Assembly (NCBI GenBank): GCA_043719295.1
Contig: JAYSUD010000001.1
Location: 97,700 to 161,699, forward strand
Length of the DNA: 64,000 nucleotides
Origin: a bacterium
GTDB taxonomy: Bacteria; Patescibacteriota; Minisyncoccia; Phycocordibacterales; UBA918
Reading direction: 5' to 3'
Shown here in pieces: positions 9,282 through 59,936 of this stretch (the stretch's first letter is position 1; every line of letters starts with the position of its first letter). Both the position numbers and the translations under genes were made by a program. The notes below the pieces were generated by a model, which did no database searches, had not been told where the DNA came from, and saw only the letters and a program-made list of their open reading frames with translations.

Positions 9282-9354
9282 GGGCCAATAGCTCATTTGG
9301 TAGAGCGCTTCACTTGCACTGAAGAGGCGGGGGGTTCGAATCCTCTTTGGTCCA
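9282..9354 (+). tRNA. tRNA-Ala (anticodon UGC)
   Basis: Manual cloverleaf fold. Acceptor GGGCCAA/TTGGTCC with the G3:U70 alanine identity pair. D-arm GCTC-ATTTGGTA-GAGC. Anticodon stem CTTCA/TGAAG with loop CTTGCAC. T-arm GGGGG-TTCGAAT-CCTCT (two G:U pairs). Discriminator A; CCA not encoded. Confidence 0.85.
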
Positions 9355-9421
9355 CAAACTGTAGGGCTCAAATGCGAATGCATTTGAGCCCTTTACAGTT
9401 TGCGACCAAAGAGGATTCGAA
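9335..9421. repeat. ~87-nt near-perfect palindrome whose left arm is the T-loop/acceptor 3' half of tRNA-Ala
   Basis: Left arm TTCGAATCCTCTTTGGTCCACAAACTGTAGGGCTCAAATGC; loop GAAT; right arm GCATTTGAGCCCTTTACAGTTTGCGACCAAAGAGGATTCGAA. About 38 bp of pairing with one small internal loop. Confidence 0.8.
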
Positions 9422-17406: not shown

Positions 17407-18414
17407 ATGATAAAAAAATCTACCAAAACCGAATTGGTTATTTTTAAGGGAAGTAAGGGGCAGGTTAAGCTTCGAGGAGATTTTCATAATGATACGTTGT
17501 GGGCGACACAAGCCGAGATTGCTGAATTATTCGATGTGGATGTTCGAACAATAAATGAGCACCTCAAGAATATCTACCGTACTGAAGAACTGTCAAAAAA
17601 AGCAACTATCCGGAATTTCCGGATAGTTAAAACAGAAGGAAATCGAAACGTCGAGCGTGATGTTTTTCACTATAATTTGGATGCAATAATTTCAACTGGA
17701 TATCGTGTAAATAGCAAAAAAGCTACTCAATTCCGCCAATGGGCAACAAATGTTGTAAAGTTACATATTACTGATGGCTTCACCATCAACAAAAGCCGTA
17801 TCGCCACCAACTATGAGGACTTTATGAAGGCAGTTACCCTTGTAAAGAATCTTGCTCCAAAGAGGAGTAATGTCGATACAGAATCGGTTCTTGAACTTGT
17901 ACAGCTTTTTGCTGACACGTGGTTCTCCCTTGATGCGTATGATAAAGAAGCGCTTGCTCCGGGAAAGGTTAATAAAAAGAAAGTTAAACTGACTTCTGTA
18001 GAATTCTTGGAAAATGTGACTGTACTCAAAGGCGAGCTCATACGAAAAGGAGAAGCTACAGAAAACTTTGCTTTAGAACGCAATCGTGAAGCAGTTGAGG
18101 GTATTATCGGTAACGTGATGCAGAGCTTTGGTGGGAAAGAAGTGTACCCGACAATAGAAGAGAAAGCGGCACACTTGATGTACTTTATCATCAAGAATCA
18201 TCCGTTTGTTGATGGTAACAAACGTACGGGTGCCTATGCATTAGTCTGGTTCTTGCAAAAGATGAAAGTGCTTGATATACATCGTCTATCGCCAACTGCA
18301 CTTACGGCACTCACACTCCTTGTAGCGGAAAGTAATCCAAAAGACAAAGAAAAAGTGGTAGCACTTGTGGTCTTACTGATAGCAGGACCAATACAGAAAA
18401 ATCGGAAGAAGTAA
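17407..18414 (+). CDS. RhuM N-terminal domain fused to a C-terminal Doc/Fic toxin domain
   Basis: N-terminal LWATQAEIAELFDVDVRTINEHLKNIYRTEEL...NLDAIISTGYRVNSKKATQFRQWATN aligns to the RhuM at 11047. C-terminal HPFVDGNKRTG matches the Doc motif HxFx(D/N)GNKR. Confidence 0.75.
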   Translation: MIKKSTKTELVIFKGSKGQVKLRGDFHNDTLWATQAEIAELFDVDVRTINEHLKNIYRTEELSKKATIRNFRIVKTEGNRNVERDVFHYNLDAIISTGYRVNSKKATQFRQWATNVVKLHITDGFTINKSRIATNYEDFMKAVTLVKNLAPKRSNVDTESVLELVQLFADTWFSLDAYDKEALAPGKVNKKKVKLTSVEFLENVTVLKGELIRKGEATENFALERNREAVEGIIGNVMQSFGGKEVYPTIEEKAAHLMYFIIKNHPFVDGNKRTGAYALVWFLQKMKVLDIHRLSPTALTALTLLVAESNPKDKEKVVALVVLLIAGPIQKNRKK

Positions 18415-20760: not shown

Positions 20761-20776
20761 TCACTGCACTACATAC

Positions 20777-20808
20777 AAAAGAAGGTGCAGTCTGCACCTT
20801 CTTTTGTT
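20777..20808 (+). terminator. Intrinsic terminator
   Basis: AAAAGAAGGTGCAG-T-CTGCACCTTCTTTTGTTGT. Confidence 0.65.
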
Positions 20809-42483: not shown

Positions 42484-42577
42484 AAAAGTTCTACAGTAAT
42501 TCATAAAAATAGAAACCTTCGAATGATATCAACAGAACAAGCGAGCCTTAGGCTCGCTTGTTCTGTATAATCTATCC

Positions 42578-48324: not shown

Positions 48325-51135
48325 ATGCATAAAAAATTTGATAATAAGGAGATTGAAGCTCGATGGCAGGAGATCTGGAAAGAAAGTGGTATCTATGATG
48401 TGGGAGAACGCGATACCAAAAAAGAGAAGGAATATATCCTTGTTGAGTGGCCATACCCCTCTGGTAACCTCCATATTGGTCACTGGCATGCGTTTGCAGT
48501 GCCTGACATCTATGCGCGCTTCCGCCGCATGAACGGGGTGCAAGTACTCTATCCAATGGGTTTTGACGCATTTGGGCTTCCTGCTGAGAACGCTGCAATC
48601 AAAAGAAATACAAGTCCAAAAGAATGGACAGAAGGCAATATTGTGTTTATGCGCAACCAGCTTAACAGTATGGGTGCCTCATTCTCGTGGGACAAAACAA
48701 CAAGTTCAACAGACCCAAGTTACTACAAATGGACACAGTGGATGTTTACCGAATTCTTTAAGAAAGATATTGCCTACCGTGGTAAGGGAATTGTAAATTG
48801 GTGCCCTGGATGCAATACCGTTATCGCAAATGAGCAGGTTCTTGCCGATGGAACCTGCGAACGTTCAGGAGACATGATTGAGAAGAAAGAAATGCCTCAG
48901 TGGATGTTACGGATTACGCAATATGCAGACAGACTTATTGATGACCTTGATGGACTCAATTGGCCAGAGCAAATTAAAGACGCACAACGAAACTGGATAG
49001 GGCGGTCACAAGGTGCAGAACTAACCTTTAAAATTTCAACAGGAGACGAAGTAACAGTCTTCACAACAAGACCCGACACACTCTATGGAGCTACCTACCT
49101 TGTCCTTGCCCCGGAACACCCCCTCATAGAAAAGGTATGGGGTGGGACCTCGAACAATGAAGAGATTGGAGTCTATGTGCATGCTTCAAAACAAAAGGCG
49201 GAGCAAGATAGACTTGATGCAACCAAAGAGAAGACAGGGGTGAAACTTGAGGGGATTACTGCGATTAACCCAGCATCAGGGGAAGAAATCCCGGTCTATA
49301 TTGCAGACTACGTACTTGGAGGATATGGAACAGGAGCAATTATGGCAGTACCAGCGCACGACGAACGAGATTTTGCATTTGCTACAAAGTTTGGACTACC
49401 GATAACACAAGTTGTACGTAAGGTATTTGGAACACCACTTTCGAATCCTGTGACAAGAAAAGCAGTAGGTTCGATAGTACATAATCCAAAAACAAATTTA
49501 TATTTAATTCAGCATAGTCACGAATTTAAAAATCATTCTTTCATATTCGGAGGTCTTGAAGCAAACGAAACGTATGAAGAAGCGGCAATTCGTGAGACAA
49601 AAGAAGAGACCGGATACGACACGAAGTTCGTTAAGTTTATAACTCAAGAAACCGAAGCACATTTTTATCACCCTGGAAAAAATGAAAATAGGACACTCAC
49701 TAGTCGACGAGTACTCTTAGAACTTGTTTCTGATGCTTCGTCTACTGTTGGTGTAGAAGAACTTAAAAAACAAGAACCGGTTTGGTTGACCTATGATGAA
49801 ATTTGTAAAAAATTCACTATAGAAGAAGATCTGTACGCAATTGCACAACTTCGTGAATCAAAACTATACACAGGAGTAGGAACACTCTATAACTCAGGAG
49901 AATTTGATGGGATGGATTCAGAAGAAGCTAAAGAAAAAATTGTTGCTAAGGTTGGAGGGAAGATGACTAATACGTATCGACTTCGTGACTGGTCTATTGG
50001 ACGTCAGCGATACTGGGGCGTACCAATTCCAATTGTGTATGACCCGCAAGGTGTTGCACATCCTGTCCCAAAAGAACACTTACCTTGGTTGTTGCCTGAG
50101 GATGTTGATTTTAGACCTACAGGTGTTGCTCCTCTTACAAAAAGTGAAGAGCTCAAAAAGAGAACAGTAGAAATCTTTGGAGAAGGATGGACACCTGAAG
50201 TTGAAACTATGGATACGTTTGTAGATTCCTCATGGTACTTTTTGCGCTACTTAGACAACCAAAACAATGGTGAACTTTCCTCGTCTATGAAACAAAAAGA
50301 ATGGATGCCTGTTGACATCTACTTTGGAGGCGCTGAACACACAACAATGCACCTTCTCTATTCACGTTTCTGGCAGAAAGCGCTATTTGACCTCGGTTTA
50401 GTTCAAGATAGCGAACCATACAAGAAGCGCATCAATCGTGGGCTCATCTTGGGCCCTGACGGTAACAAGATGAGTAAGAGTAAAGGGAACGTTATTGATC
50501 CTGATGATCACGTTAAAACAGTGGGTGCTGATTGTGTAAAAATGTACCTCTCGTTTATGGGGCCATACGGAGAGACAGCAAACTATCCATGGGATATGGG
50601 AGGTATTGTTGGTGTCCGCCGATTCCTCGAGCGTGTATACGGACTTGATACGCATATCACAGAATCTGAGAGTGAAGAAGTAACGCGTCAACTCCACAAA
50701 ACTATCTCGAAGTTAGAGAACGATGTCCCACTCTATAAATTCAACACCGCGATAAGTGCGATGATGATTTATATTAATCTTGTTGAAAAAGACGGATTAA
50801 CACTTGAATCGTATCTAGTATTCTTGCGTCTACTTGCGCCATTTGCTCCACACCTTACAGAAGAACTGTGGGCCATTCAAGGTAAAATAACTTCAATTCA
50901 TCTTGAATCGTATCCAAAATCAAATCCACTTTATGTTGTAGATACAAAGGTGACTATTGCTGTCCAAGTTAATGGAAAAATGCGTGGAAGTATTGTTGTG
51001 CAAAAAGATGCAGATGAATCTTTTATCTTGAATAGAGCTACAGAAACAGAAACGATAGCAAAATACCTCACAAACGGAGTTACGCGACACATTTACGTCC
51101 CAAACAAAATTATCAACATTATGACTAACGTATAA
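48325..51135 (+). CDS. leuS: Leucyl-tRNA synthetase with an inserted Nudix hydrolase domain
   Basis: HIGH: YPSGNLHIGHWHAF. Editing-domain markers TTRPDTLYGATYLVLAPEHP and GTGAIMAVPAHDERDFAFATKFGLPI. KMSKS: KMSKSKGN. Residues ~365-515 hold the Nudix box GGLEANETYEEAAIRETKEETGY. Confidence 0.9.
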   Translation: MHKKFDNKEIEARWQEIWKESGIYDVGERDTKKEKEYILVEWPYPSGNLHIGHWHAFAVPDIYARFRRMNGVQVLYPMGFDAFGLPAENAAIKRNTSPKEWTEGNIVFMRNQLNSMGASFSWDKTTSSTDPSYYKWTQWMFTEFFKKDIAYRGKGIVNWCPGCNTVIANEQVLADGTCERSGDMIEKKEMPQWMLRITQYADRLIDDLDGLNWPEQIKDAQRNWIGRSQGAELTFKISTGDEVTVFTTRPDTLYGATYLVLAPEHPLIEKVWGGTSNNEEIGVYVHASKQKAEQDRLDATKEKTGVKLEGITAINPASGEEIPVYIADYVLGGYGTGAIMAVPAHDERDFAFATKFGLPITQVVRKVFGTPLSNPVTRKAVGSIVHNPKTNLYLIQHSHEFKNHSFIFGGLEANETYEEAAIRETKEETGYDTKFVKFITQETEAHFYHPGKNENRTLTSRRVLLELVSDASSTVGVEELKKQEPVWLTYDEICKKFTIEEDLYAIAQLRESKLYTGVGTLYNSGEFDGMDSEEAKEKIVAKVGGKMTNTYRLRDWSIGRQRYWGVPIPIVYDPQGVAHPVPKEHLPWLLPEDVDFRPTGVAPLTKSEELKKRTVEIFGEGWTPEVETMDTFVDSSWYFLRYLDNQNNGELSSSMKQKEWMPVDIYFGGAEHTTMHLLYSRFWQKALFDLGLVQDSEPYKKRINRGLILGPDGNKMSKSKGNVIDPDDHVKTVGADCVKMYLSFMGPYGETANYPWDMGGIVGVRRFLERVYGLDTHITESESEEVTRQLHKTISKLENDVPLYKFNTAISAMMIYINLVEKDGLTLESYLVFLRLLAPFAPHLTEELWAIQGKITSIHLESYPKSNPLYVVDTKVTIAVQVNGKMRGSIVVQKDADESFILNRATETETIAKYLTNGVTRHIYVPNKIINIMTNV

Positions 51136-51241: not shown

Positions 51242-52267
51242 ATGATTTCGTTTAAACCAAAACAGGTAACAAAAAAACTCCTCGGAGCCCTTCCACCACG
51301 AGCTAAAGATGTGCTCGAAAAGCGCTACGGCATCGGAACTGAAGGAGAAAGTAGTACGCTTGAGTCCATTGGACAAACGTACGGTATTACTCGTGAGCGA
51401 GTACGGCAAATTGAAAACTACGGTATTACATCAATCCAGAAATCAGCTGAATACAAAGAATTTGAGGCAATTTTTGTAGAACTCCAAGAAATCATAACGA
51501 GCTTAGGCGGTGGACTTATTGCTGAACACGTACTCCTTGAAGAGATAACCAGTGACATAACACTTCGAAATCACATCTATTTTCTCCTTGTAGTTGGTAT
51601 TCCATTCTTCAGAAGTAAAGAAAATACTACGTACGAACATCGATGGTATACCGAGAAGAAAATTGCTGACATTGTCGAAAAGGCACTGACAAAACTCTAC
51701 AGCAATCTCAATCGAGAAGACTTGATTACCGAAGAAGAAATGATTAAACGATTCCGTGACGAACTTATTGAAATTACTGATAAACACGACGAAGTAATAC
51801 TCAAACGTTGGCTACAAATCTCAAAAGACATCAGTGCAAACCCACTTGGTGAATGGGGACAGTCATCAAGTCCAAACGTTAAGGTTAAGGGAATTCGCGA
51901 TTACGCATATTTGGTAGTAAAACGTCACGGATCTCCAATGCACTTTAAAGAAGTGGCAGAAGCAATTCAAGAACTCTTTGACAAAAAAGCGCATACTGCA
52001 ACCTGTCACAATGAACTCATTAAAGATGACCGATTTGTATTGGTAGGACGCGGACTCTATGCACTTACTGAATGGGGATACTCAGCGGGAGTTGTAAAAG
52101 ACGTACTTCGAGATATCCTTGAAGAACATGGTCCACTTTCAAAAGAAGAAATTATCGACAAGGTACGCAAAGAGCGGTACGTAAAAGACAATACCATTGT
52201 AGTAAACCTCCAAGATACAGTTTTGTTCAAAAAACTTTCTAATGGGATGTATTCAATCGCAGAATAA
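51242..52267 (+). CDS. Sigma-70 region-4-like HTH protein with C-terminal HARE-HTH (RNAP delta-like) domain
   Basis: N-terminal LPPRAKDVLEKRYGIGTEGESSTLESIGQTYGITRERVRQIENYG (sigma region 4.2-like). C-terminal MHFKEVAEAIQELF...DDRFVLVGRGLYALTEWGY (HARE-HTH). Confidence 0.55.
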   Translation: MISFKPKQVTKKLLGALPPRAKDVLEKRYGIGTEGESSTLESIGQTYGITRERVRQIENYGITSIQKSAEYKEFEAIFVELQEIITSLGGGLIAEHVLLEEITSDITLRNHIYFLLVVGIPFFRSKENTTYEHRWYTEKKIADIVEKALTKLYSNLNREDLITEEEMIKRFRDELIEITDKHDEVILKRWLQISKDISANPLGEWGQSSSPNVKVKGIRDYAYLVVKRHGSPMHFKEVAEAIQELFDKKAHTATCHNELIKDDRFVLVGRGLYALTEWGYSAGVVKDVLRDILEEHGPLSKEEIIDKVRKERYVKDNTIVVNLQDTVLFKKLSNGMYSIAE

Positions 52268-52382: not shown

Positions 52383-52451
52383 CATAAGTCCTAATAAATA
52401 ATTTTTATATACATAAACGGGGTATTTTGAAAACAAAATACCCCGTTTGTA

Positions 52452-53819
52452 ATGTACAATAGAATACACATGGCACACGATAAAAAAGGGATTCCTATAA
52501 TCGGAGGAATGATAGGCTTTCTTGATACTGAGGATATTAACTATGCAATACCTGCACTGGTCATAGGACTTTTTATTGTTGTAGTTGTACTTAGCTTCAT
52601 CGGGGTCTCACAGTCAAAGATGATTACCTTCATCTTTATTTTATCTCCTTTGTGGTTACCATATTTAACCTTTCACTTGTTCTTTGAAAAATGGCTTGAA
52701 ATGGTAGGAAAAAAATTCAGACTTAAAAGCGGGCGTACAATATTTGAAATAAAACTTCCACCTGAAGTATTTAAGTCACCTGAAGCAATGGAGTTTGTGT
52801 TTACTCAGATTTGGAATCAAGCAAGTCCTGATAACTTGTGGGAAACCTATATTGACGGCAAACGTCCGCCAAACTATACCTTTGAACTAGTATCACGAGG
52901 AGGTGATGTACATTTTTACGCGACCATTCCAAACAAATTCACCGGTGGGTTTGTAGACAACATGTATGCCCAGTATCCAGGGGTTGAAGTCATTAAACAG
53001 GAAGTAGACTACACGGCAGAAGTCCCAAGTGACTTTGGTGATTTTAAAGAGTGGTCAGCTATTTGTTTCCATTTCAATAAAAAAAATGACGAAGAACTTC
53101 CGATTAAAACATACATCGACTTTGGAATGGACAAATTGCCAAAAGAGGAACAGAAAGTTGACCCCATGACACCTATGCTTGAAATGCTTGGTGCTATAGA
53201 TCCACATCGACAGATTTGGATTCAGTTTATTGTTCGTGGACACAGAAAACGCAATTTTAAGAACGGACAATTACATGCAGAAGGAACCTGGGAAAAACGA
53301 ATCCAAGCAAAAATTGATAAACTAATGGGAAGAGATAAAGACAAGAAAGCTGAAATTGAGTTTGAGGGAATGGTAAAACTAACAACTGGTGAACGTGACC
53401 TTGTTGACTCAATGGAACGACAAGCAGGGAAAGCGCCATTTGAGTTTGCATGTCGACTGTTTTATCTCTCAAAGAAACCAGGAGATTATGATGGGGGATT
53501 GTACAGTAAGTTTATTCGTAACTTTGCAGCAACCGAAAATCGTATTGGAAATGGCCTTGGAGTAAACTGGCGAACAGACTTTAACTATAACTGGTTTTCA
53601 GATCCTTTTGCTAAAATTCGACCAAAGCTCAAAAAAGAAGAATTACACCTTTATAAAACTCGTCAGTGGTTTAAACATTTTAAAGTAATGTCTGCTGAAG
53701 AGATGGCAACAATCTTTCACTTACCTGGTACTGTTGCGTTTACCCCAACTTTAAATCGTGTTCCATCAACACGAGGTGAGGCGCCGAATAATTTACCAAC
53801 AGGCAATCTACCAACCTAA
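52452..53819 (+). CDS. Large hypothetical membrane protein (2 N-terminal TM plus ~380-aa soluble domain)
   Basis: No motif recognised; immediately precedes mltG. Confidence 0.4.
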   Translation: MYNRIHMAHDKKGIPIIGGMIGFLDTEDINYAIPALVIGLFIVVVVLSFIGVSQSKMITFIFILSPLWLPYLTFHLFFEKWLEMVGKKFRLKSGRTIFEIKLPPEVFKSPEAMEFVFTQIWNQASPDNLWETYIDGKRPPNYTFELVSRGGDVHFYATIPNKFTGGFVDNMYAQYPGVEVIKQEVDYTAEVPSDFGDFKEWSAICFHFNKKNDEELPIKTYIDFGMDKLPKEEQKVDPMTPMLEMLGAIDPHRQIWIQFIVRGHRKRNFKNGQLHAEGTWEKRIQAKIDKLMGRDKDKKAEIEFEGMVKLTTGERDLVDSMERQAGKAPFEFACRLFYLSKKPGDYDGGLYSKFIRNFAATENRIGNGLGVNWRTDFNYNWFSDPFAKIRPKLKKEELHLYKTRQWFKHFKVMSAEEMATIFHLPGTVAFTPTLNRVPSTRGEAPNNLPTGNLPT

Positions 53820-53821
53820 AC

Positions 53822-54823
53822 ATGGAATTTGATCTAACAGAAAGAAATTACAAAAGTATGAATAAGAGCAAATCAATTTTACTCTTTATTATAATTTCGC
53901 TCATAATTCTCTTTGGTATAGGTGGATTTTCATTTTTCCAAACCACTCCACCTGACTATGCTCTAGAACAAGACGGAGTTACACTGCAAATTGATAAGGG
54001 GATGTCGGTTCAGGCAATTGCAAATCGTGCCGAGGAAGTAGGCTTAGTTCGTTCTTCATTTTTTCTCTATGCACTTCTAACCTATTCGTACGACCCAACT
54101 TCAATTTATGCGGGAATCTATCACTTTGAAGAACCAAAAAATGTATTTGAGGTTGCAAAGAAACTTGCTTCAAACGATATTGATGCTTCGTTACAGAGAA
54201 TTACGTTACCTGAAGGAATTACAAGAAAAGCTATTGCAGAAATTGCACAATCAAAAATTAAAGATTTTGACACTATACTTTTCCTGCAACTATCAAAAAA
54301 CAATGAGGGGTACTTATTCCCTGACACTTATTTTGTATCAATTGATTCAACTGCAGAGCAATTTGTAACCGTACTTATGGATACATTTTCTTTAAAAGTA
54401 GCTCCTTATAAAGAAAAAATTGCACAGTCACAATTTTCTGAATATGAAGTACTCATATTGGCTTCTATTTTAGAACGAGAAGCAAATGACGAAGTTTCTA
54501 TGAAAATGGTCTCAGGAATCCTTCAAAATCGACTCAAAATCGGCATGGCACTTCAAACCGATGCATCTATTGAGTATGTTCTTAATAAAACGTTACAGGA
54601 ACTGAAACCAGAAGATTTAAAAATTGATACACCCTACAATACGTACTTGTATCGCGGATTACCTCCAACACCAATTGGGAACCCTGGACTTCAGGCTATT
54701 GAAGCAGTCCTTGAACCGACACCGTCAAAATACATGTTTTACATTACAGGGGACGATGGCCAATTTTATTACGCAGAGACATTTGAAGCACACAAGAGGA
54801 ACATCTCAAAGCACCTCAAATAG
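53822..54823 (+). CDS. mltG: Endolytic murein transglycosylase MltG (YceG-like)
   Basis: N-terminal TM; YceG core LILASILEREANDEVSMKMVSGILQNRLKIGMALQTDASIEYV...YNTYLYRGLPPTPIGNPG. Confidence 0.8.
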   Translation: MEFDLTERNYKSMNKSKSILLFIIISLIILFGIGGFSFFQTTPPDYALEQDGVTLQIDKGMSVQAIANRAEEVGLVRSSFFLYALLTYSYDPTSIYAGIYHFEEPKNVFEVAKKLASNDIDASLQRITLPEGITRKAIAEIAQSKIKDFDTILFLQLSKNNEGYLFPDTYFVSIDSTAEQFVTVLMDTFSLKVAPYKEKIAQSQFSEYEVLILASILEREANDEVSMKMVSGILQNRLKIGMALQTDASIEYVLNKTLQELKPEDLKIDTPYNTYLYRGLPPTPIGNPGLQAIEAVLEPTPSKYMFYITGDDGQFYYAETFEAHKRNISKHLK

Positions 54824-54900
54824 TACGATATATCGTACTATTTGAGGTGCTTCTGTAAATTTTGCACACAAAGACTCTGTGTGATAGCGTACGTACACAA

Positions 54901-55974
54901 ATGACTACACAAACTACAAAAACTGTGTTTGTTGGACTCTCAGGAGGAGTTGACTCTTCAGTGTGTGCGTTACGTCTTATTAAGCAAGGATATAATGTTG
55001 TCGGAGTTTTTATTAAAGTCTGGCATCCTGATTTTTTAGAATGTAATTGGGAGCAAGAGCGACTTGATGCAATGCGTGTTGCTGCAAAACTCCGCATTCC
55101 ATTTCTTACCTGTGATGCAGAAAAAGCGTATAAGGATGACGTGGCAGATTATTTTATTGGTGAATATAAAATGGGTCGCACACCAAACCCCGATGTTATG
55201 TGTAACAAATACGTAAAGTTCGGTGCATTTTTAGATTTTGCAAAATCTCATAATGCAGACTTTGTTGCAACAGGACACTATGCAATACGAAATGAAAATG
55301 AAGGCTCTTATACGCTCCACAGAGGGGTTGATGGCACAAAAGATCAGTCGTATTTTTTATGGACACTAACGCAAGCACAACTGAAGTACATACTGCTACC
55401 TGTAGGTGATTCAGAAAAGACAATCATTCGAAAAGAAGCAGAGGATGCTGACCTTATAACTGCAGAAAAAAAAGATAGTCAAGGTATCTGTTTTTTAGGT
55501 GCCGTAGATATACCAGAATTTCTTTCGCACTATATTGAACTCAAGGAGGGTGCCGTTCTAAATGAGGAAGGTGTCACTATTGGTACACACAAAGGTGCGC
55601 TCGTATACACAAATGGACAACGACAAGGTTTTACCATTACAACATCAAATCCGGTTCGAAAGCCGTATTACGTGTGTGACAGAAACATTGAAGAGAATAC
55701 GATTACTGTTACAACCAATAAGATTGTTACAGAAATAAAAAGCCTCATTACACTAACTGAATTAAACTACATTGCCTTCGAACCTAAAGTTGGAAACATG
55801 CTTTCAATACAAACTCGGTATCGTCAAAAACCGTCGCTCTGTGAAATTGTTTCTATAGACGAAAAATCGCTTACACTTACGTATACGGAGGTAGGTGAAA
55901 CAGTAAGCTACGGTCAGTCATGTGTATTATATGATGATGAAGTCTGCTGTGGGGGTGGTATTATTACGGAATGA
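54901..55974 (+). CDS. mnmA: tRNA-specific 2-thiouridylase MnmA
   Basis: PP-loop VFVGLSGGVDSSV; catalytic Cys regions NPDVMCNKYVKFG and GICFLG. Start taken at MTTQTTK; the listed ORF starts 13 codons upstream. Confidence 0.9.
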   Translation: MTTQTTKTVFVGLSGGVDSSVCALRLIKQGYNVVGVFIKVWHPDFLECNWEQERLDAMRVAAKLRIPFLTCDAEKAYKDDVADYFIGEYKMGRTPNPDVMCNKYVKFGAFLDFAKSHNADFVATGHYAIRNENEGSYTLHRGVDGTKDQSYFLWTLTQAQLKYILLPVGDSEKTIIRKEAEDADLITAEKKDSQGICFLGAVDIPEFLSHYIELKEGAVLNEEGVTIGTHKGALVYTNGQRQGFTITTSNPVRKPYYVCDRNIEENTITVTTNKIVTEIKSLITLTELNYIAFEPKVGNMLSIQTRYRQKPSLCEIVSIDEKSLTLTYTEVGETVSYGQSCVLYDDEVCCGGGIITE

Positions 55975-56813
55975 GTTTTTCTGTAGCGAAAGCAGACGGT
56001 AACTTCGAGCCATTTAATGCTCAAAAGTTACGGCAGTCTTTACAACAATCTGGCGCAACCTCTGCTGAAATTAGCGCGATTGTAGCTGAAATTGAATCAA
56101 TAATGTATGACGGTATTCATACCCAAGAAATATACAAGTATGCATTTGAACTCCTCCAAAAAAGTGAAGTGACCGTTGCTGCACGATACTCCTTACGAAG
56201 AGCACTTTTTAATCTCGGCCCAACTGGTTTTCCGTTCGAAGACTTTTTAGCTCGATTGTTTGCCTATGAAGGCTACATAACAAAGACGCGTGTATTGTTA
56301 CAGGGTAATTGTGTTGAACATGAACTTGATGTTGCTGCATATAAAAGTGACCATAGTTTTGTTTGCGAAGCGAAATTTCACTCACATCCAGGGATGAAGT
56401 CTGATCTCCAAGTTGCACTCTATTGTCACTCGCGCCTTCTTGATCTTAAGGATACTAAAATCTGTAACGAGGACATTTGCGGTATAAAGGAACTTATGAT
56501 TGTGACTAATACAAAATTTACCACTTCAGCAGAAAAGTATGGTGTTTGTAGCGGACTCACCCTTCTCAGTTGGGATTTTCCTAAAAAGAATAACCTCCAT
56601 GACCGTATTCAAAAATCAGGAATGTATCCCGTTACCGTTTTGCAAACATTGAGTGTTTCTCAAAAAAGAGCATTGATTGAACGCGGGATTGTCGTTTGTG
56701 CTGATTTGTTAGTAAAGCCCGAGTTATTGCGACATGCCCACATCTCACAAACACGAATGCAGTTGGTTCTTGAAGAGGCAAAGAAGCTCAGTCAAACAAC
56801 AGTAGGTCAATAG
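55971..56813 (+). CDS. ATP-cone domain fused to a restriction-endonuclease-like (PD-(D/E)xK, Mrr-like) domain
   Basis: N-terminal ATP-cone pattern FSVAKADGNFEPFNAQKLRQSLQQSGAT. C-terminal EHELDVAAYKSDHSFVCEAKFH (E..D....x10..CEAK). ATG overlaps the mnmA stop (ATGA). Confidence 0.55.
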   Translation: MSFSVAKADGNFEPFNAQKLRQSLQQSGATSAEISAIVAEIESIMYDGIHTQEIYKYAFELLQKSEVTVAARYSLRRALFNLGPTGFPFEDFLARLFAYEGYITKTRVLLQGNCVEHELDVAAYKSDHSFVCEAKFHSHPGMKSDLQVALYCHSRLLDLKDTKICNEDICGIKELMIVTNTKFTTSAEKYGVCSGLTLLSWDFPKKNNLHDRIQKSGMYPVTVLQTLSVSQKRALIERGIVVCADLLVKPELLRHAHISQTRMQLVLEEAKKLSQTTVGQ

Positions 56814-56821
56814 GAACCTCA

Positions 56822-56923
56822 AAAGACGGCGCACTTCTTCGTTGTGCTACGTGAAATATTACTCAATGTACTATACGTACACCTCGCCATATTTTACTTG
56901 CACGTCTCGAATTGCAATCGTTT
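56822..56923. repeat. Copy E of the dispersed intergenic element
   Basis: AGACGGCGCACTTCTTCGTTGTGCTACGTGAAATATTACTCAATGTACTATACGTACACCTCGCCATATTTTACTTGCACGTCTCGAATTGCAATCGTTTT. Confidence 0.7.
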
Positions 56924-57022
56924 TTGAGATTCCTACAAAACTAGACTAGGTTTTGTCAAGACTTTTCTTATTTTTAGCTATGATATAATTGGCGTATATA
57001 AGCATTATCACAGAATTATTGT

Positions 57023-57753: not shown

Positions 57754-58533
57754 ATGTCAACGTACGTAAAAAAATATAATCCAAACCGGTCATCAGAATG
57801 GAACTATGGCGGAGCAAAGTGGAAACTATCTCGTTCAAAAATTGATTTTTTTATTGAGTGTCCTCGTTGCTTTTATATTGACAACAAACTTGGAACAAAA
57901 CGACCTGGAATGCCATCGTTTAACTTAAACATTGCAGTTGATGAGTTATTTAAAAAAGAATTCGATACGTATCGTGAAAAAGGTGAATCACATCCAATCA
58001 TGAAAGAGTATAAAGTTGATGCAGTGCCTTTTGTACACAAAGAACTTAACGTATGGCGTGACCCCTTTGAAGGAATACAATTTGTACATAAATCTACAGG
58101 ATTAACCGTCTCAGGTGGAATTGATGATGTATGGCAAAACAAAGATGAATCATTGATTGTTGTTGACTACAAAGCAACTTCTAAAGACGGAAAAATTGAA
58201 ACACTTGCCGATTCTTCATGGGAAGATCAGTACAAACGACAAATTGGTGTGTATCAGTGGCTCTTTACTCAAAATGGATTTAACGTCCAGAAAACAGGGT
58301 TTTTTGTCTATGCCAACGCACTTAAAAGTGGAGAGGCCTTTAACGACACATTAACCTTTGATACCACACTTGTTCCGTGCGAAGGTGATCAAAGCTGGAT
58401 AGAACCAACGTTAGAAAAAATTAAAGTCTGCCTTGAGAACGATACCTACCCAGAATCAGGTCCAAATTGTGAGTACTGTCCGTATCGAGAAGCCTGCGGT
58501 AAAAAACTACAGGCAATTCACAAGAAATCATAA
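57754..58533 (+). CDS. PD-(D/E)xK nuclease with Cas4/AddB-type Fe-S Cys cluster (DUF83/Cas4-like), not CRISPR-associated here
   Basis: N-terminal CPRC; nuclease motif IDDVWQNKDESLIVVDYKATSK (D...DYK); C-terminal CLEND...CEYCPYREAC. Confidence 0.6.
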   Translation: MSTYVKKYNPNRSSEWNYGGAKWKLSRSKIDFFIECPRCFYIDNKLGTKRPGMPSFNLNIAVDELFKKEFDTYREKGESHPIMKEYKVDAVPFVHKELNVWRDPFEGIQFVHKSTGLTVSGGIDDVWQNKDESLIVVDYKATSKDGKIETLADSSWEDQYKRQIGVYQWLFTQNGFNVQKTGFFVYANALKSGEAFNDTLTFDTTLVPCEGDQSWIEPTLEKIKVCLENDTYPESGPNCEYCPYREACGKKLQAIHKKS

Positions 58534-58537
58534 ATGT

Positions 58538-58798
58538 ATGACTGAATTTACCGAACTCGTTCGTGATGTAGTCCGAAATATCCCAAAGGGTAGTGTTATG
58601 ACGTATAAGGAGGTTGCCAAAAAAGCAGGTAATGAAAAAGCTTCACGAGCTGTAGCAAACGTTATGGCAGCAAACTATGACCTTGAAGTGCCTTGCCACC
58701 GTGTTATTCGGGCCGACGGTACTTTAGGAGGCTATAATCGTGGTGGAATTGAAAAAAAGCGTGAACTATTAACTGAAGAAGGTGTACAATTATCATAA
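58538..58798 (+). CDS. MGMT-family DNA-binding domain protein (O6-alkylguanine-DNA alkyltransferase C-domain only)
   Basis: Active-site motif PCHRVI with the Cys acceptor; HTH MTYKEVAKKAGNEKASRAVANV. ~86 aa. The listed ORF 58433.. is an upstream extension overlapping the previous gene. Confidence 0.6.
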   Translation: MTEFTELVRDVVRNIPKGSVMTYKEVAKKAGNEKASRAVANVMAANYDLEVPCHRVIRADGTLGGYNRGGIEKKRELLTEEGVQLS

Positions 58799-59333: not shown

Positions 59334-59936
59334 ATGTATTCCTACCGCATTGAACAAGCACTTCGCGCTGCGACAATTCTTCACAAAGACCAAGTTCGTA
59401 AGGGATCAATAGCAATTCCTTATGTAAGTCATCTTGTTGCAGTCTCATTCATTGCGCTTGACTATACGGACAATGAAGATGTTATTATTGCATGCCTTCT
59501 TCACGACACACTTGAAGACACTGACTACACAAAAGCTGAGCTTGAAGATGATTTTGGAGGGGTCGTTCGCGAGATAGTCGAAGCAGTCTCAGAACCACAA
59601 ACCGAAGAATTCAAAAAATTACCTTGGCGAGAACAAAAGCTACACTATGTTAAAAACCTTAAAGGAGCTCAAGAAGAAGCTTTGATTGTTTCGGCTGCAG
59701 ATAAGATACACAACATGCGAACGGTCATAGAAGAGTATTATGATGATCATTCACGATTTGTTGCGGACTTTAAAGGAAGTTTAGAAGACAGACTCTTTGC
59801 ATACGAAGAGATAAGTACTGTTTTAAACAAAAAACTGCACAATGGAATTATTGAAGAATTTAATATAGTATTTGGAGAATATAAAAATTTTATTTCAGAT
59901 GTCAAAAAATCTAAAGAAGAACAAGAACGTTTCTAA
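59334..59936 (+). CDS. HD-domain phosphohydrolase ((p)ppGpp hydrolase SpoT/Mesh1-like small HD protein)
   Basis: SHLVAVSFIA...ACLLHDTLEDTDYT: HD motif with the RelA/SpoT-type EDT signature. Confidence 0.65.
   Translation: MYSYRIEQALRAATILHKDQVRKGSIAIPYVSHLVAVSFIALDYTDNEDVIIACLLHDTLEDTDYTKAELEDDFGGVVREIVEAVSEPQTEEFKKLPWREQKLHYVKNLKGAQEEALIVSAADKIHNMRTVIEEYYDDHSRFVADFKGSLEDRLFAYEEISTVLNKKLHNGIIEEFNIVFGEYKNFISDVKKSKEEQERF

What the first reader, a model, noticed from the sequence alone, without database searches (positions are those of the whole stretch)
54901..56813. ATP-cone/PD-(D/E)xK nuclease-like protein translationally coupled to mnmA
Seen in sequence: the mnmA stop overlaps the ATG of a 280-aa ORF (ATGA). 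Its N-terminus follows the ATP-cone pattern (VAKADGNFEPFNAQKLRQSL...) and its C-terminus carries a restriction-endonuclease-like motif (EHELDVAAYKSDHSFVCEAKFH).

Established knowledge: ATP-cones are nucleotide-sensing regulatory modules (NrdR, RNR). Mrr-like PD-(D/E)xK domains cut DNA or RNA.

Inference: this is a nucleotide-regulated nuclease co-expressed with a tRNA-modification enzyme, possibly a tRNA- or stress-linked RNase or a defence effector parked in a housekeeping operon.
Basis: partly seen in the sequence, partly recalled or inferred. Interest (0 to 1): 0.5.

Follow-up and report, generated by a model that had tools for sequence, protein, structure and literature searches.

The report
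ATP-cone-gated Mrr-like nuclease family
Downstream of, and overlapping, the tRNA-thiolation gene mnmA lies a gene for a DNA-cutting enzyme fused to the adenine-nucleotide sensor otherwise known only from ribonucleotide reductases and their repressor NrdR; it belongs to a large, catalogued family that nobody has tested, and its link to mnmA holds only in this lineage.

Summary
mnmA (54901-55974) ends in a TGA that overlaps the ATG of a 280-aa ORF (55971-56813).

That ORF has three domains:
- an ATP-cone that passes the Pfam threshold;
- an Mrr/AF1548-type PD-(D/E)xK nuclease (PDB 1Y88, E=3e-30), whose D120/E133/K135 are invariant in 151 representatives;
- a C-terminal (HhH)2-like domain.

The family is large, with more than 1,100 clusters at 50% identity. 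It occurs in Patescibacteria, DPANN archaea, Bacteroidota and Chlamydiota. Databases name it only 'ATP cone domain-containing protein' or 'restriction endonuclease', and I found no functional study.

The gene behaves as a vertically inherited core gene. It has no phage copies, no defence-model hits and no methyltransferase partner.

The mnmA linkage is lineage-specific: 24/24 loci at 50% identity or more, but 5/35 below 43.5%.

In other lineages the neighbours are:
- other nucleases (Cas4-like, beta-CASP);
- an AMP/thymidine-phosphorylase homologue with PRPP synthetase;
- fermentation enzymes, Usp, MgtC and P-type ATPases;
- in one archaeon, NrdD/NrdG.

Best reading: an ATP/dATP-gated endonuclease that starts nucleic-acid turnover or nucleotide recycling. 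This is inferred, not shown. A dedicated tRNA or defence role is unlikely.

The parts
54809..54852 (+). 44-nt perfect palindrome between the yceG stop and the mnmA start. It is a likely terminator or boundary that makes mnmA and the nuclease gene a two-gene unit.
   Evidence: the repeat finder I2: 22-nt arms, 100% complementary, 0 nt between them; sequence.
54901..55974 (+). mnmA, tRNA 2-thiouridine(34) synthase, 357 aa.
   Evidence: NCBIfam PRK00143 388 bits (cutoff 284) and TIGR00420 358 bits; Pfam tRNA_Me_trans plus its M and C domains.
55971..55974 (+). ATGA overlap: the mnmA stop TGA (55972-55974) and the nuclease start ATG (55971-55973).
   Evidence: Sequence. Overlaps of 1, 4 or 16 nt occur in 18 of 39 related loci. 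Only 2 of 43 neighbour pairs in the window overlap.
55971..56813 (+). 280-aa ATP-cone / PD-(D/E)xK / AF1548-like_C protein, called 'ACN' in this report.
55983..56204 (+). ATP-cone domain, residues 5-78. K7, G10, F15, K19, S23 and T51 are conserved.
56214..56240 (+). Invariant linker motif LGPTGFPFE, residues 82-90. G83, G86, F89 and E90 are 100% conserved. E90 is probably the first acidic residue of the nuclease site.
   Evidence: Conservation in 151 representatives. pLDDT is below 50 for residues 80-85, so this is a flexible hinge.
56244..56585 (+). Mrr/AF1548-type PD-(D/E)xK nuclease core, residues about 92-205. Catalytic D120 (56328-56330), E133 (56367-56369) and K135 (56373-56375). H117, E118, R155, D158 and N180 are also invariant or nearly so.
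56625..56789 (+). AF1548-like C-terminal helical domain, residues 219-273, of (HhH)2 type. It is the presumed non-specific nucleic-acid-binding module.
56811..56935 (+). Long imperfect hairpin of about 125 nt directly after the stop codon. It is a possible terminator or structured element.
   Evidence: RNA fold -43.4 kcal/mol, z=-4.35, 0 of 200 shuffles fold as well. Single copy in the window. No Rfam match.
53822..54823 (+). yceG (mltG-like), the conserved upstream neighbour in the Patescibacteria gene block.
   Evidence: Pfam YceG 239 bits. Synteny.
57754..58533 (+). Cas4-like PD-(D/E)xK (PDDEXK_1) nuclease with Cys motifs. It is the conserved downstream neighbour, also in loci that lack mnmA.
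   Evidence: Pfam PDDEXK_1 54.5 bits and Cas_Cas4 23 bits. PADLOC Cas4 models. Present within 2.5 kb downstream in 16 of 16 close loci and in L003, L004 and L006.

Best explanation
The 280-aa ORF encodes a cytosolic, metal-dependent endonuclease of the Mrr/AF1548 branch of the PD-(D/E)xK superfamily. An N-terminal ATP-cone puts its activity under the control of the adenine (deoxy)nucleotide pool. A C-terminal (HhH)2-like domain holds the nucleic acid, most likely DNA, without sequence specificity.

Shown:
- the three domains;
- an intact, invariant catalytic set (E90, D120, E133, K135);
- conserved ATP-cone lysines (K7, K19);
- vertical inheritance as a core gene;
- an operon with mnmA in this lineage.

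Inferred:
- ATP or dATP binding to the cone changes the oligomeric state or the domain packing, as it does in ribonucleotide reductases and NrdR, and so switches cutting on or off.
- The biological job is controlled breakdown of nucleic acid, so that nucleotides and their pentose are recycled when energy or nucleotides are short. An exonuclease encoded next door would finish the job: Cas4-like in Patescibacteria, beta-CASP in Bacteroidota and Chlamydiota.

The coupling to mnmA is a lineage-specific operon arrangement, not the core of the function.
For: Architecture:
- ATP-cone above the Pfam threshold, and AF1548-like_C above threshold.

Selection:
- D120, E133 and K135 are 151/151; E90, E118, R155 and D158 are 100%.
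- K7 is 99% and K19 is 97%. The cone is present in 150 of 151 representatives.

Core-gene behaviour:
- Identity to the query tracks MnmA, YceG and the Cas4-like protein (r=0.85-0.87).
- Mean identity is 55% against 57% for MnmA.
- GC content matches that of the window.

Role, from neighbourhoods in independent lineages:
- Pontibacter and Criblamydia plasmids carry ACN, a beta-CASP MBL nuclease, an archaeal-type thymidine/AMP-phosphorylase homologue (TIGR02645 589-602 bits, above its 434.6 cutoff; AMP_phos 480-507 bits, below its 535 cutoff) and ribose-phosphate diphosphokinase. These sit next to phosphoketolase, acetate kinase, glycogen phosphorylase, lactate-type dehydrogenase and a P-type ATPase.
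- The same operon is in metagenome loci L059 and L065.
- 11-12 Bacteroidota-type loci have a beta-CASP nuclease directly downstream, and 9 have Usp.
- The Psychroserpens chromosome places the gene inside a cluster of GAPDH-like, aldolase, PFK, MgtC, LDH, Usp and P-type ATPase genes.
- An archaeal locus, L091, has it divergent from nrdD-nrdG-thioredoxin, with thioredoxin reductase, MazG and HD genes downstream.

Taxonomic fit: the family is abundant in Patescibacteria and DPANN. These groups are reported to feed nucleotide ribose into central metabolism through AMP phosphorylase, R15P isomerase and RuBisCO (PMC5113843, PMC6389311).
Against: - No member of the family has been assayed, so substrate (DNA or RNA), products and the sign of regulation are unknown.
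- In this protein the Pfam Mrr_cat score is below threshold (15.2 against 21).
- The residue equivalent to RNR R10 is A or S in the family. The ligand could therefore differ from ATP/dATP.
- The salvage-type operon was seen in Bacteroidota and Chlamydiota, not in the Patescibacteria clade of this window. Here the neighbours are mnmA, a membrane-anchored protein, a Cas4-like nuclease and an MGMT-like DNA-binding protein, which fits DNA repair as well.
- The complete conservation of mnmA adjacency, often with overlap, in the close clade is left unexplained. So is a cysteine-desulfurase neighbour in some Flavobacteria.
- (HhH)2-like domains can also bind proteins, as NusA AR2 does.
Confidence: 0.5

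Rival explanations
1. DNA-repair endonuclease whose incision is licensed by the dNTP/ATP pool. The cone would allow cutting of damaged or structured DNA only when repair synthesis can follow.
For: - Patescibacteria neighbours are a Cas4-like nuclease, an MGMT-type DNA-binding protein and, in several loci, a family-4-like uracil-DNA glycosylase.
- Archaeal L007 has the LigD phosphoesterase domain and endonuclease III on either side.
- Aenigmatarchaeota loci have a purine DNA glycosylase and a DHH/DHHA1 (RecJ-like) gene within 5 kb.
- JGI pipelines call relatives 'Holliday junction resolvase-like'.
Against: - In Bacteroidota and Chlamydiota the neighbours are metabolic and stress genes and a nucleotide-catabolism operon, not repair genes.
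- The repair neighbours in Patescibacteria belong to one long syntenic block. They count as one evolutionary observation.
- No lesion-recognition domain is present.
Confidence: 0.2
2. RNA-directed nuclease tied to tRNA thiolation. It would work with MnmA, for example by cleaving hypomodified or surplus tRNA under nucleotide control.
For: - mnmA is adjacent in 24 of 24 loci with 50% identity or more.
- Stop and start overlap in 18 of 39 loci, while only 2 of 43 gene pairs in this window overlap.
- In five Flavobacteria-type loci the downstream neighbour is a SufS-type cysteine desulfurase, the class of sulfur donor that MnmA needs.
- The partner beta-CASP enzymes carry the 'RNA specificity' RMMBL domain.
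Against: - mnmA adjacency falls to 6/14 and then 5/35 in more distant relatives. Loci with yceG-ACN-cas4-like lack mnmA altogether.
- No mnmA was found next to the gene in the archaeal, Bacteroidota or Chlamydiota loci.
- The C-terminal domain and the closest folds are DNA-binding or DNA-cutting.
Confidence: 0.12
3. Anti-phage or anti-mobile-element effector. This would be either a type IV (Mrr-like) restriction enzyme or an abortive-infection nuclease that fires when infection disturbs ATP/dNTP pools. From memory, the ATP/dNTP-inhibited Gabija nuclease GajA works this way.
For: - The nuclease belongs to the Mrr clade (PMC3424549), and RefSeq names relatives 'restriction endonuclease'.
- The best fold analogues after AF1548 are the CARF nucleases Can2 and Card1.
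- One Bacteroidota variant is identical across species and sits in the cargo of an RteC-type mobile element. Two others are on plasmids.
Against: - The only PADLOC match is a non-significant hit to CARF_PDDEXK (E=0.037, 11 bits).
- None of about 100 neighbourhoods contains a methyltransferase or a known defence gene.
- There are no homologues in 2.9 million viral contigs or 50,697 phage genomes.
- In Patescibacteria the gene is single, syntenic, as conserved as MnmA, and has the GC content of the genome.
- The mobile copies travel with metal-resistance and fermentation genes.
Confidence: 0.1

Closest known systems
AF1548 of Archaeoglobus fulgidus (PDB 1Y88; Pfam AF1548-like_C, PF22357)
   Different: The crystallised AF1548 chain has no ATP-cone; the alignment begins at chain residue 23. 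It also lacks the KICNEDIC insertion. It is a structural-genomics protein with no tested function, so it gives a fold but not a mechanism.
Mrr-type (type IV) restriction endonucleases, Pfam Mrr_cat PF04471 / COG1787 group
   Same: Same branch of the PD-(D/E)xK superfamily; 1Y88 and COG1787 are filed with Mrr_cat in PMC3424549. Several homologues pass the Mrr_cat threshold.
   Different: Mrr has an N-terminal winged-helix domain that recognises modified DNA. Here that place is taken by an ATP-cone. The gene behaves as a conserved core or metabolic-island gene, not as a defence gene. The query itself is below the Mrr_cat threshold.
NrdR, the ATP-cone repressor of ribonucleotide reductase genes
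   Different: There is no Zn-ribbon. The output module is a nuclease with intact catalytic residues, not a DNA-binding repressor. No NrdR boxes were examined.
ATP-cones of ribonucleotide reductases (NrdA, NrdD, and NrdB of Leeuwenhoekiella)
   Same: Same domain. The residues equivalent to NrdA K9, E15, K21 and T55 are kept. In RNRs, ATP and dATP binding drives oligomerisation that switches activity (PMC5794259, PMC11226230).
   Different: The regulated enzyme is unrelated. The residue equivalent to R10 is A or S in this family. Ligand and sign of regulation are untested.
Can2 / Card1 / Cdn1 CARF-nuclease effectors of type III CRISPR
   Different: The sensor is an ATP-cone, not CARF. There is no CRISPR or cyclase context. 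This is a working analogy only, not family membership.
NucS/EndoMS mismatch endonuclease
   Different: The N-terminal domain differs, there is no PCNA or beta-clamp motif, and there is no significant sequence similarity.

Membership tests
ATP-cone domain (Pfam PF03477) | HMM score above the curated gathering threshold | tested here: met
   38.0 bits against 25.8, residues 5-78 covering model positions 3-84 of 88.
ATP-cone domain (Pfam PF03477) | Four-helix cone fold with an N-terminal beta-hairpin, superposable on solved cones | tested here: met
ATP-cone domain (Pfam PF03477) | Nucleotide-contacting residues (NrdA K9, R10, E15, K21, T55 equivalents) | tested here: inconclusive
   K7, E13, K19 and T51 align with K9, E15, K21 and T55. 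In the family K7 is 99%, K19 is 97% and T51 is 90% conserved. The R10 equivalent is A or S. The residue roles in NrdA are taken from memory. Binding itself was not tested.
PD-(D/E)xK nuclease superfamily, Mrr/AF1548 branch | Catalytic D...(D/E)xK on the central beta-sheet, with an upstream acidic residue | tested here: met
   D120, E133 and K135 align with AF1548 D38, E51 and K53 (PMC1821046, PMC1874628). They are invariant in 151 of 151 representatives, and E90 is invariant too.
PD-(D/E)xK nuclease superfamily, Mrr/AF1548 branch | Pfam Mrr_cat (PF04471) score above the gathering threshold | tested here: not met
   The query scores 15.2 bits against 21. Homologues P0238, P0339, P0131, P0241, P0166, P0337 and P0200 do pass, at 22.6-34.3 bits. 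Membership therefore holds at family level through AF1548, not through this HMM.
AF1548-like proteins (PDB 1Y88 / Pfam PF22357) | Significant sequence and fold match over both the nuclease and the C-terminal domain | tested here: met
Restriction-modification system (types I-III) | A cognate DNA methyltransferase encoded next to the nuclease | tested here: not met
   No DNA methyltransferase in the window neighbourhood. None among the 25 most frequent Pfam families of 148 neighbours. None in the annotated loci. The one methyltransferase seen, in L104, is a UbiE-type small-molecule enzyme about 8 kb away.
Known anti-phage defence systems (PADLOC-DB) | Match to a defence-protein model and location among defence genes | tested here: not met
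   Only a non-significant hit, CARF_PDDEXK at E=0.037 and 11 bits. No defence families among the neighbours. No phage homologues.
NrdR | N-terminal Zn-ribbon (CxxC...CxxC) preceding the ATP-cone | tested here: not met
   The cone starts at residue 5, there is no Zn-ribbon, and no NCBIfam NrdR hit was found.
Allosterically gated nuclease (works like Can2/Card1 or an ATP-cone-regulated enzyme) | Ligand binding changes oligomeric state and nuclease activity | not testable with these tools
   This needs binding, SEC-MALS or mass-photometry, and nuclease assays. Only the co-conservation of cone and active site (150 of 151 representatives) speaks for it.

The most novel reading that the evidence does not exclude
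The ATP-cone nuclease is the gated entry enzyme of a nucleic-acid catabolism and recycling route. When the adenylate or dATP signal indicates shortage, it nicks DNA or RNA. A partner exonuclease (beta-CASP or Cas4-like) then releases mononucleotides. An AMP/thymidine-phosphorylase homologue and PRPP-synthetase-type enzymes pass the pentose to phosphoketolase, glycolysis or RuBisCO.

This would be a third, unexplored use of the ATP-cone beyond RNR and NrdR. It would also supply the missing upstream nuclease of the nucleotide-based metabolism proposed for Patescibacteria and DPANN.
Probability: 0.3. Interest if true: 0.7.

Novelty: new variant of a known kind. Interest (0 to 1): 0.45.

Why it matters
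All characterised ATP-cones regulate deoxynucleotide supply, either in ribonucleotide reductases or in their repressor NrdR. A conserved ATP-cone fused to an intact nuclease would extend that allosteric switch to nucleic-acid cleavage. The family has thousands of members and is a core gene in the small-genome Patescibacteria and DPANN archaea.

It would also give a testable link between nucleotide or energy status and nucleic-acid turnover in organisms that cannot make nucleotides de novo. The family exists in cultured Bacteroidota (Pontibacter, Psychroserpens, Chitinophaga, Sphingobacterium, Myroides), so the idea can be tested directly.

For annotation, these genes should not be called 'restriction endonuclease', 'ATPase' or 'Holliday junction resolvase' on present evidence. 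The mnmA neighbourhood should not be read as a functional clue.

Tried and rejected
1. Defence reading.
- PADLOC scan: only a non-significant hit.
- IMG/VR scan with two conserved peptide patterns: no confirmed relative.
- tblastn against 50,697 phage genomes: no match.
- Rejected as the main explanation.

2. Restriction-modification reading. No methyltransferase partner was found in any neighbourhood. Rejected.

3. A Cas4-like four-cysteine metal or Fe-S site.
- C114, C165, C170 and C193 are invariant among close relatives.
- C165 and C170 are not conserved across the family.
- Only C114 and C193 (95% each) are general, and their role is unknown.
- A family-wide cluster is rejected.

4. NCBIfam gave no family for the protein.

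5. Rfam scan of 50-60 kb gave only a sub-threshold, implausible snoRNA hit. The downstream hairpin has no second copy in the window.

6. Literature.
- 'ATP-cone' with 'nuclease', 'restriction endonuclease' or 'Patescibacteria', and the phrase 'ATP cone domain-containing protein', gave no functional study.
- AF1548 and 1Y88 appear only in fold and family surveys.

7. blastn of the locus against plasmids found only mnmA fragments in chromosomes that PLSDB files as plasmids.

8. The genome-contig scan with the single protein returned only 6 loci. The metagenome scan with an alignment was far more useful.

9. Two of the last context look-ups, P0146 and P0126, landed on contigs too short to inform.
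Full report
**1. What is in the sequence**

On the + strand, mnmA runs from ATG 54901 to TGA 55972-55974. A second ORF begins at ATG 55971 and ends at TAG 56811-56813 (280 aa). The two genes therefore share the tetranucleotide ATGA.

The upstream product is a full-length MnmA. NCBIfam PRK00143 scores 388 bits against a cutoff of 284, and all three Pfam MnmA domains are present.

A 44-nt perfect palindrome (54809-54852) separates yceG from mnmA. A hairpin of about 125 nt follows the second ORF (56811-56935; -43.4 kcal/mol, z=-4.35). mnmA and the ORF therefore look like a two-gene unit.

In my crude gene map of the window, only 2 of 43 same-strand neighbour pairs overlap. The overlap is thus not simply the habit of this genome.

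**2. The protein has three domains**

- **Residues 5-78** match the Pfam ATP-cone at 38.0 bits (threshold 25.8).
- **Residues 219-273** match AF1548-like_C at 24.5 bits (threshold 23.9).
- **Mrr_cat** scores only 15.2 bits, below its threshold of 21.

Against PDB sequences the only hit is AF1548 (1Y88), at E=3.2e-30 over residues 92-273.

An AlphaFold2 model built on 51 homologues has mean pLDDT 83 and pTM 0.71. It has a disordered hinge at residues 80-85. Fold searches with that model gave:

| Target | Score | Call |
|---|---|---|

The C-terminal matches are to (HhH)2-type modules. The architecture is therefore nucleotide sensor, then PD-(D/E)xK nuclease, then a non-specific nucleic-acid-binding domain.

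**3. Active site and sensor are under selection**

D120, E133 and K135 align with the D38, E51 and K53 predicted to be catalytic in AF1548 (PMC1821046, PMC1874628).

An exhaustive HMMER search of 1.84 billion cluster representatives found 1,160 relatives at E up to 1e-3 and 413 at E up to 1e-30. In the best 150 plus the query:

- D120, E133, K135, E90, E118, R155 and D158 are invariant.
- H117, N180, W201 and P204 are at least 98% conserved, and P220 is invariant.
- 150 of 151 keep the ATP-cone, with K7 at 99%, G10 at 98%, K19 at 97% and T51 at 90%.

These cone residues align with K9, G12, K21 and T55 of E. coli NrdA. The equivalent of NrdA R10 is A or S, so the ligand preference may not be identical to that of RNR cones. 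That last point is an inference.

Two cysteines, C114 and C193, are 95% conserved. The extra pair C165 and C170 is confined to the close clade, so a family-wide four-cysteine site is excluded.

**4. Who has it, and what it is called**

Close relatives (59-93% identity) come from Parcubacteria and Patescibacteria metagenomes and MAGs. Relatives at 40-50% identity come from Paceibacterota, Saccharibacteria and Yonathbacteria.

The family is also present in:

- DPANN archaea (Altiarchaeales, Aenigmatarchaeota);
- many Bacteroidota, including cultured Myroides, Sphingobacterium, Pontibacter, Chitinophaga and Psychroserpens;
- Chlamydiota such as Criblamydia.

Source names are 'hypothetical protein', 'ATP cone domain-containing protein', 'restriction endonuclease', 'ATPase', 'Holliday junction resolvase-like predicted endonuclease' and 'NrdR family protein/...'. 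NCBIfam has no model for it.

The PD-(D/E)xK survey PMC3424549 files 1Y88 and COG1787 with Mrr_cat. Full-text searches found no functional study of an ATP-cone nuclease. From memory, the original ATP-cone paper (Aravind, Wolf and Koonin 2000) may have listed such fusions. I could not read it.

**5. The mnmA linkage**

I collected 104 loci in all.

In the Patescibacteria clade around the query, one long block is conserved. In order it contains:

- a sigma70_r4/HARE-HTH protein;
- a 455-aa membrane protein with no Pfam match;
- yceG;
- mnmA;
- ACN;
- a 178-aa anchored protein;
- a Cas4-like nuclease;
- an MGMT-type DNA-binding protein;
- in some loci UDG, then HD_4, then an M3 peptidase.

mnmA adjacency depends on how close the relative is:

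| ACN identity to the query | Loci with mnmA adjacent |
|---|---|
| 50% or more | 24 of 24 |
| 43.5-50% | 6 of 14 |
| below 43.5% | 5 of 35 |

The mnmA stop and the ACN start overlap by 1, 4 or 16 nt in 18 of 39 loci, and lie 42 nt or less apart in 13 more. Loci L003, L004 and L006 have yceG-ACN-cas4-like with no mnmA.

ACN identity to the query rises and falls with that of MnmA, YceG, the 455-aa protein and the Cas4-like protein (r=0.85-0.87). Its mean identity (55%) equals that of MnmA (57%), and its GC content is that of the window.

The gene is therefore a vertically inherited core gene. The mnmA coupling is a stable operon of one lineage, not a property of the family.

**6. Neighbourhoods elsewhere**

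In Bacteroidota-type loci the recurrent neighbours are:

- a beta-CASP/RMMBL metallo-hydrolase directly downstream (11-12 loci), sometimes after an 84-aa ORF;
- universal stress proteins upstream (9 loci);
- MgtC or MgtC-DUF4010 (6);
- P-type cation ATPases (5 or more);
- a D-2-hydroxyacid dehydrogenase.

Two annotated plasmids, from different phyla, show the fuller picture. Pontibacter actiniarum NZ_CP021236 and Criblamydia sequanensis NZ_LK031773 both carry this operon:

- ACN;
- MBL-fold (beta-CASP) hydrolase;
- 'thymidine phosphorylase family protein';
- ribose-phosphate pyrophosphokinase.

The operon is flanked by a P-type ATPase, phosphoketolase, glycogen phosphorylase, acetate kinase and a lactate-type dehydrogenase.

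The phosphorylases are of the archaeal type. TIGR02645 scores 589-602 bits (cutoff 434.6). They fall just below the AMP-phosphorylase equivalog cutoff, at 480-507 bits against 535. The same four-gene order is present in metagenome loci L059 and, as far as that contig reaches, L065.

Other contexts:

- **Psychroserpens ponticola chromosome.** The gene lies in one co-directional cluster with a GAPDH-like protein, a DeoC-family aldolase, PFK, MgtC-DUF4010, LDH, Usp, a K+ channel and a P-type ATPase.
- **Another clade (L101).** The order is CusB-AcrB-P-type ATPase-ACN.
- **A variant identical across Bacteroidota species.** It sits in copper-resistance cargo next to RteC.
- **Eight Patescibacteria loci.** A 173-aa MgtC gene sits next to or near ACN: directly adjacent in three, one gene away in five.
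- **Archaea.** L007 has the LigD phosphoesterase domain and endonuclease III on either side. L091 has ACN divergent from nrdD-nrdG-thioredoxin, followed by thioredoxin reductase, MazG, MBL and HD genes. Aenigmatarchaeota-type loci repeat DJ-1/PfpI upstream and thioredoxin reductase downstream.

No methyltransferase partner, CRISPR array or defence gene appears in any of these neighbourhoods.

**7. How it most likely works**

Shown:

- an intact Mrr/AF1548-type active site;
- a conserved ATP-cone joined to it by an invariant hinge (LGPxGFPFE);
- a DNA-binding-type tail;
- core-gene behaviour.

Established knowledge is that ATP-cones bind ATP or dATP and act by changing oligomeric state, in RNRs and in NrdR (PMC5794259, PMC9110341, PMC11226230).

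From this I infer that the cone gates the nuclease according to the adenine (deoxy)nucleotide pool.

The biological role is also inferred. In unrelated lineages the gene sits beside a second, exonuclease-type enzyme of a different fold: Cas4-like or beta-CASP. In two phyla it sits beside enzymes that dismantle nucleotides and ferment the pentose. In one archaeon it sits beside the anaerobic RNR.

The simplest reading that covers all of these is controlled nucleic-acid breakdown for nucleotide and pentose recycling under energy or nucleotide shortage. This fits the abundance of the family in Patescibacteria and DPANN. For those groups, a nucleotide-to-glycolysis route through AMP phosphorylase and RuBisCO has been proposed (PMC5113843, PMC6389311).

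I put this at about 0.5 overall. The molecular description alone is much more secure (about 0.85). The role alone is about 0.4. The sign of regulation and the substrate are unknown.

**8. Rivals**

- **A dNTP-licensed DNA-repair nuclease (0.2).** It is supported by repair-type neighbours in Patescibacteria and archaea and by the NucS and RAD51-like folds. It does not explain the metabolic clusters.
- **A tRNA-directed RNase working with MnmA (0.12).** It is supported by the very tight, clade-wide coupling and by a SufS-type neighbour in five Flavobacteria-type loci. The linkage vanishes in most of the family, and the accessory domain looks DNA-directed.
- **A defence effector (0.1).** This would be type IV restriction or a nucleotide-depletion sensor. 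It is supported only by the Mrr ancestry, the Can2-like logic and a few mobile copies. All direct tests for defence context were negative.

**9. Novelty and verdict**

The gene is a new member of a family that databases already catalogue by its domains, and whose nuclease half was crystallised in 2004. No member has a tested function, and an ATP-cone that controls a nuclease is not a described mechanism.

I therefore rate it a new variant of a known kind, namely sensor-gated PD-(D/E)xK nucleases and ATP-cone allostery. Interest is moderate at 0.45.

The domain reading is right. The mnmA-centred and defence-centred interpretations are not supported.

Noticed in passing
window 48325-51135 (+): The leucyl-tRNA synthetase carries a NUDIX domain inserted after the editing domain (residues 377-500, 59.5 bits). 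The same NUDIX hit is listed for the LeuRS of related locus L009. A nucleotide-pyrophosphatase insertion in an aminoacyl-tRNA synthetase is unusual.
   Followed up: partly
window 56811-56935 (+): The intergenic region after the nuclease gene folds into a long imperfect hairpin of about 125 nt (-43.4 kcal/mol, z=-4.35). It has no Rfam match and no second copy in the window. Relatives have only about 80 nt between the genes here, so it may be an insertion or a lineage-specific structured element.
   Followed up: partly
window 54809-54852: A 44-nt perfect palindrome starts inside the last codons of yceG and ends 49 nt before mnmA. Several other intergenic perfect palindromes exist (for example 42532-42566, 20775-20807 and 52415-52448), mostly without a T-tract. 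They suggest the terminator style of this genome.
   Followed up: no
window 52452-53819 (+): A 455-aa protein with predicted membrane segments has no Pfam or PADLOC match. In at least 25 Patescibacteria loci it always lies between the sigma70_r4/HARE-HTH protein and yceG (31-63% identity). It is a conserved protein of unknown function and probably part of the cell-envelope machinery.
   Followed up: partly
window 51242-52267 (+): A 341-aa protein combines sigma-70 region 4 with a HARE-HTH domain. It is the most conserved gene of the block (55-79% identity across loci).
   Followed up: no
window 57754-58533 and about 58538-58798 (+): A Cas4-like PDDEXK_1 nuclease with CxxC...CxxCx5C cysteines is followed, after 4 nt, by an 86-aa protein made only of the MGMT DNA-binding domain (alkyltransferase-like). 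There is no CRISPR array nearby. This pair stays next to the ATP-cone nuclease even in loci that lack mnmA.
   Followed up: partly
loci L046, L063, L064, L075, L085: In one Flavobacteria-type context the ATP-cone nuclease lies after two ABC-2 permease genes. In four of the five loci it lies directly upstream of a stand-alone SufS-type cysteine desulfurase, which is the kind of sulfur donor MnmA needs. This is a second, independent neighbour from the s2U34 pathway. It may be coincidence and is unexplained.
   Followed up: no
loci L006, L041, L045, L048, L050, L051, L053, L081, L088 (Patescibacteria); L042, L059, L061, L076, L082, L083, L104 (Bacteroidota); L007, L101, L100: MgtC-family proteins and P-type cation ATPases are the neighbours that recur across the most phyla. 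They are more widespread than mnmA. The reason is unknown. It may reflect a shared energy or Mg2+ stress regulon.
   Followed up: partly
loci L094-L096 (Myroides / Sphingobacterium and relatives): One ATP-cone nuclease sequence is identical across several Bacteroidota species ('MULTISPECIES'). It sits between a DeoC-family aldolase and a copper-type P-type ATPase in a metal-resistance island with RteC. This indicates recent horizontal spread on a conjugative element.
   Followed up: partly
window 9335-9421: The 3' end of tRNA-Ala(TGC) (9282-9355) has a perfect 18-nt inverted copy 51 nt downstream (9404-9421).
   Followed up: no
window 59334-59936 (+): A 200-aa stand-alone HD_4 protein resembles the hydrolase domain of RelA/SpoT (TIGR00691, 74 bits). 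It is a possible small alarmone hydrolase and is conserved in the same block in relatives.
   Followed up: no
window 17407-18414 (+) and 12299-14686 (+): A RhuM/Fic-domain protein (335 aa) and a 795-aa ORF with no Pfam match lie in the first third of the window. They may be accessory or mobile genes.
   Followed up: no
locus L090 8448-10583: The thioredoxin-reductase-like gene downstream of the archaeal ATP-cone nuclease contains an intein with a LAGLIDADG endonuclease domain.
   Followed up: no
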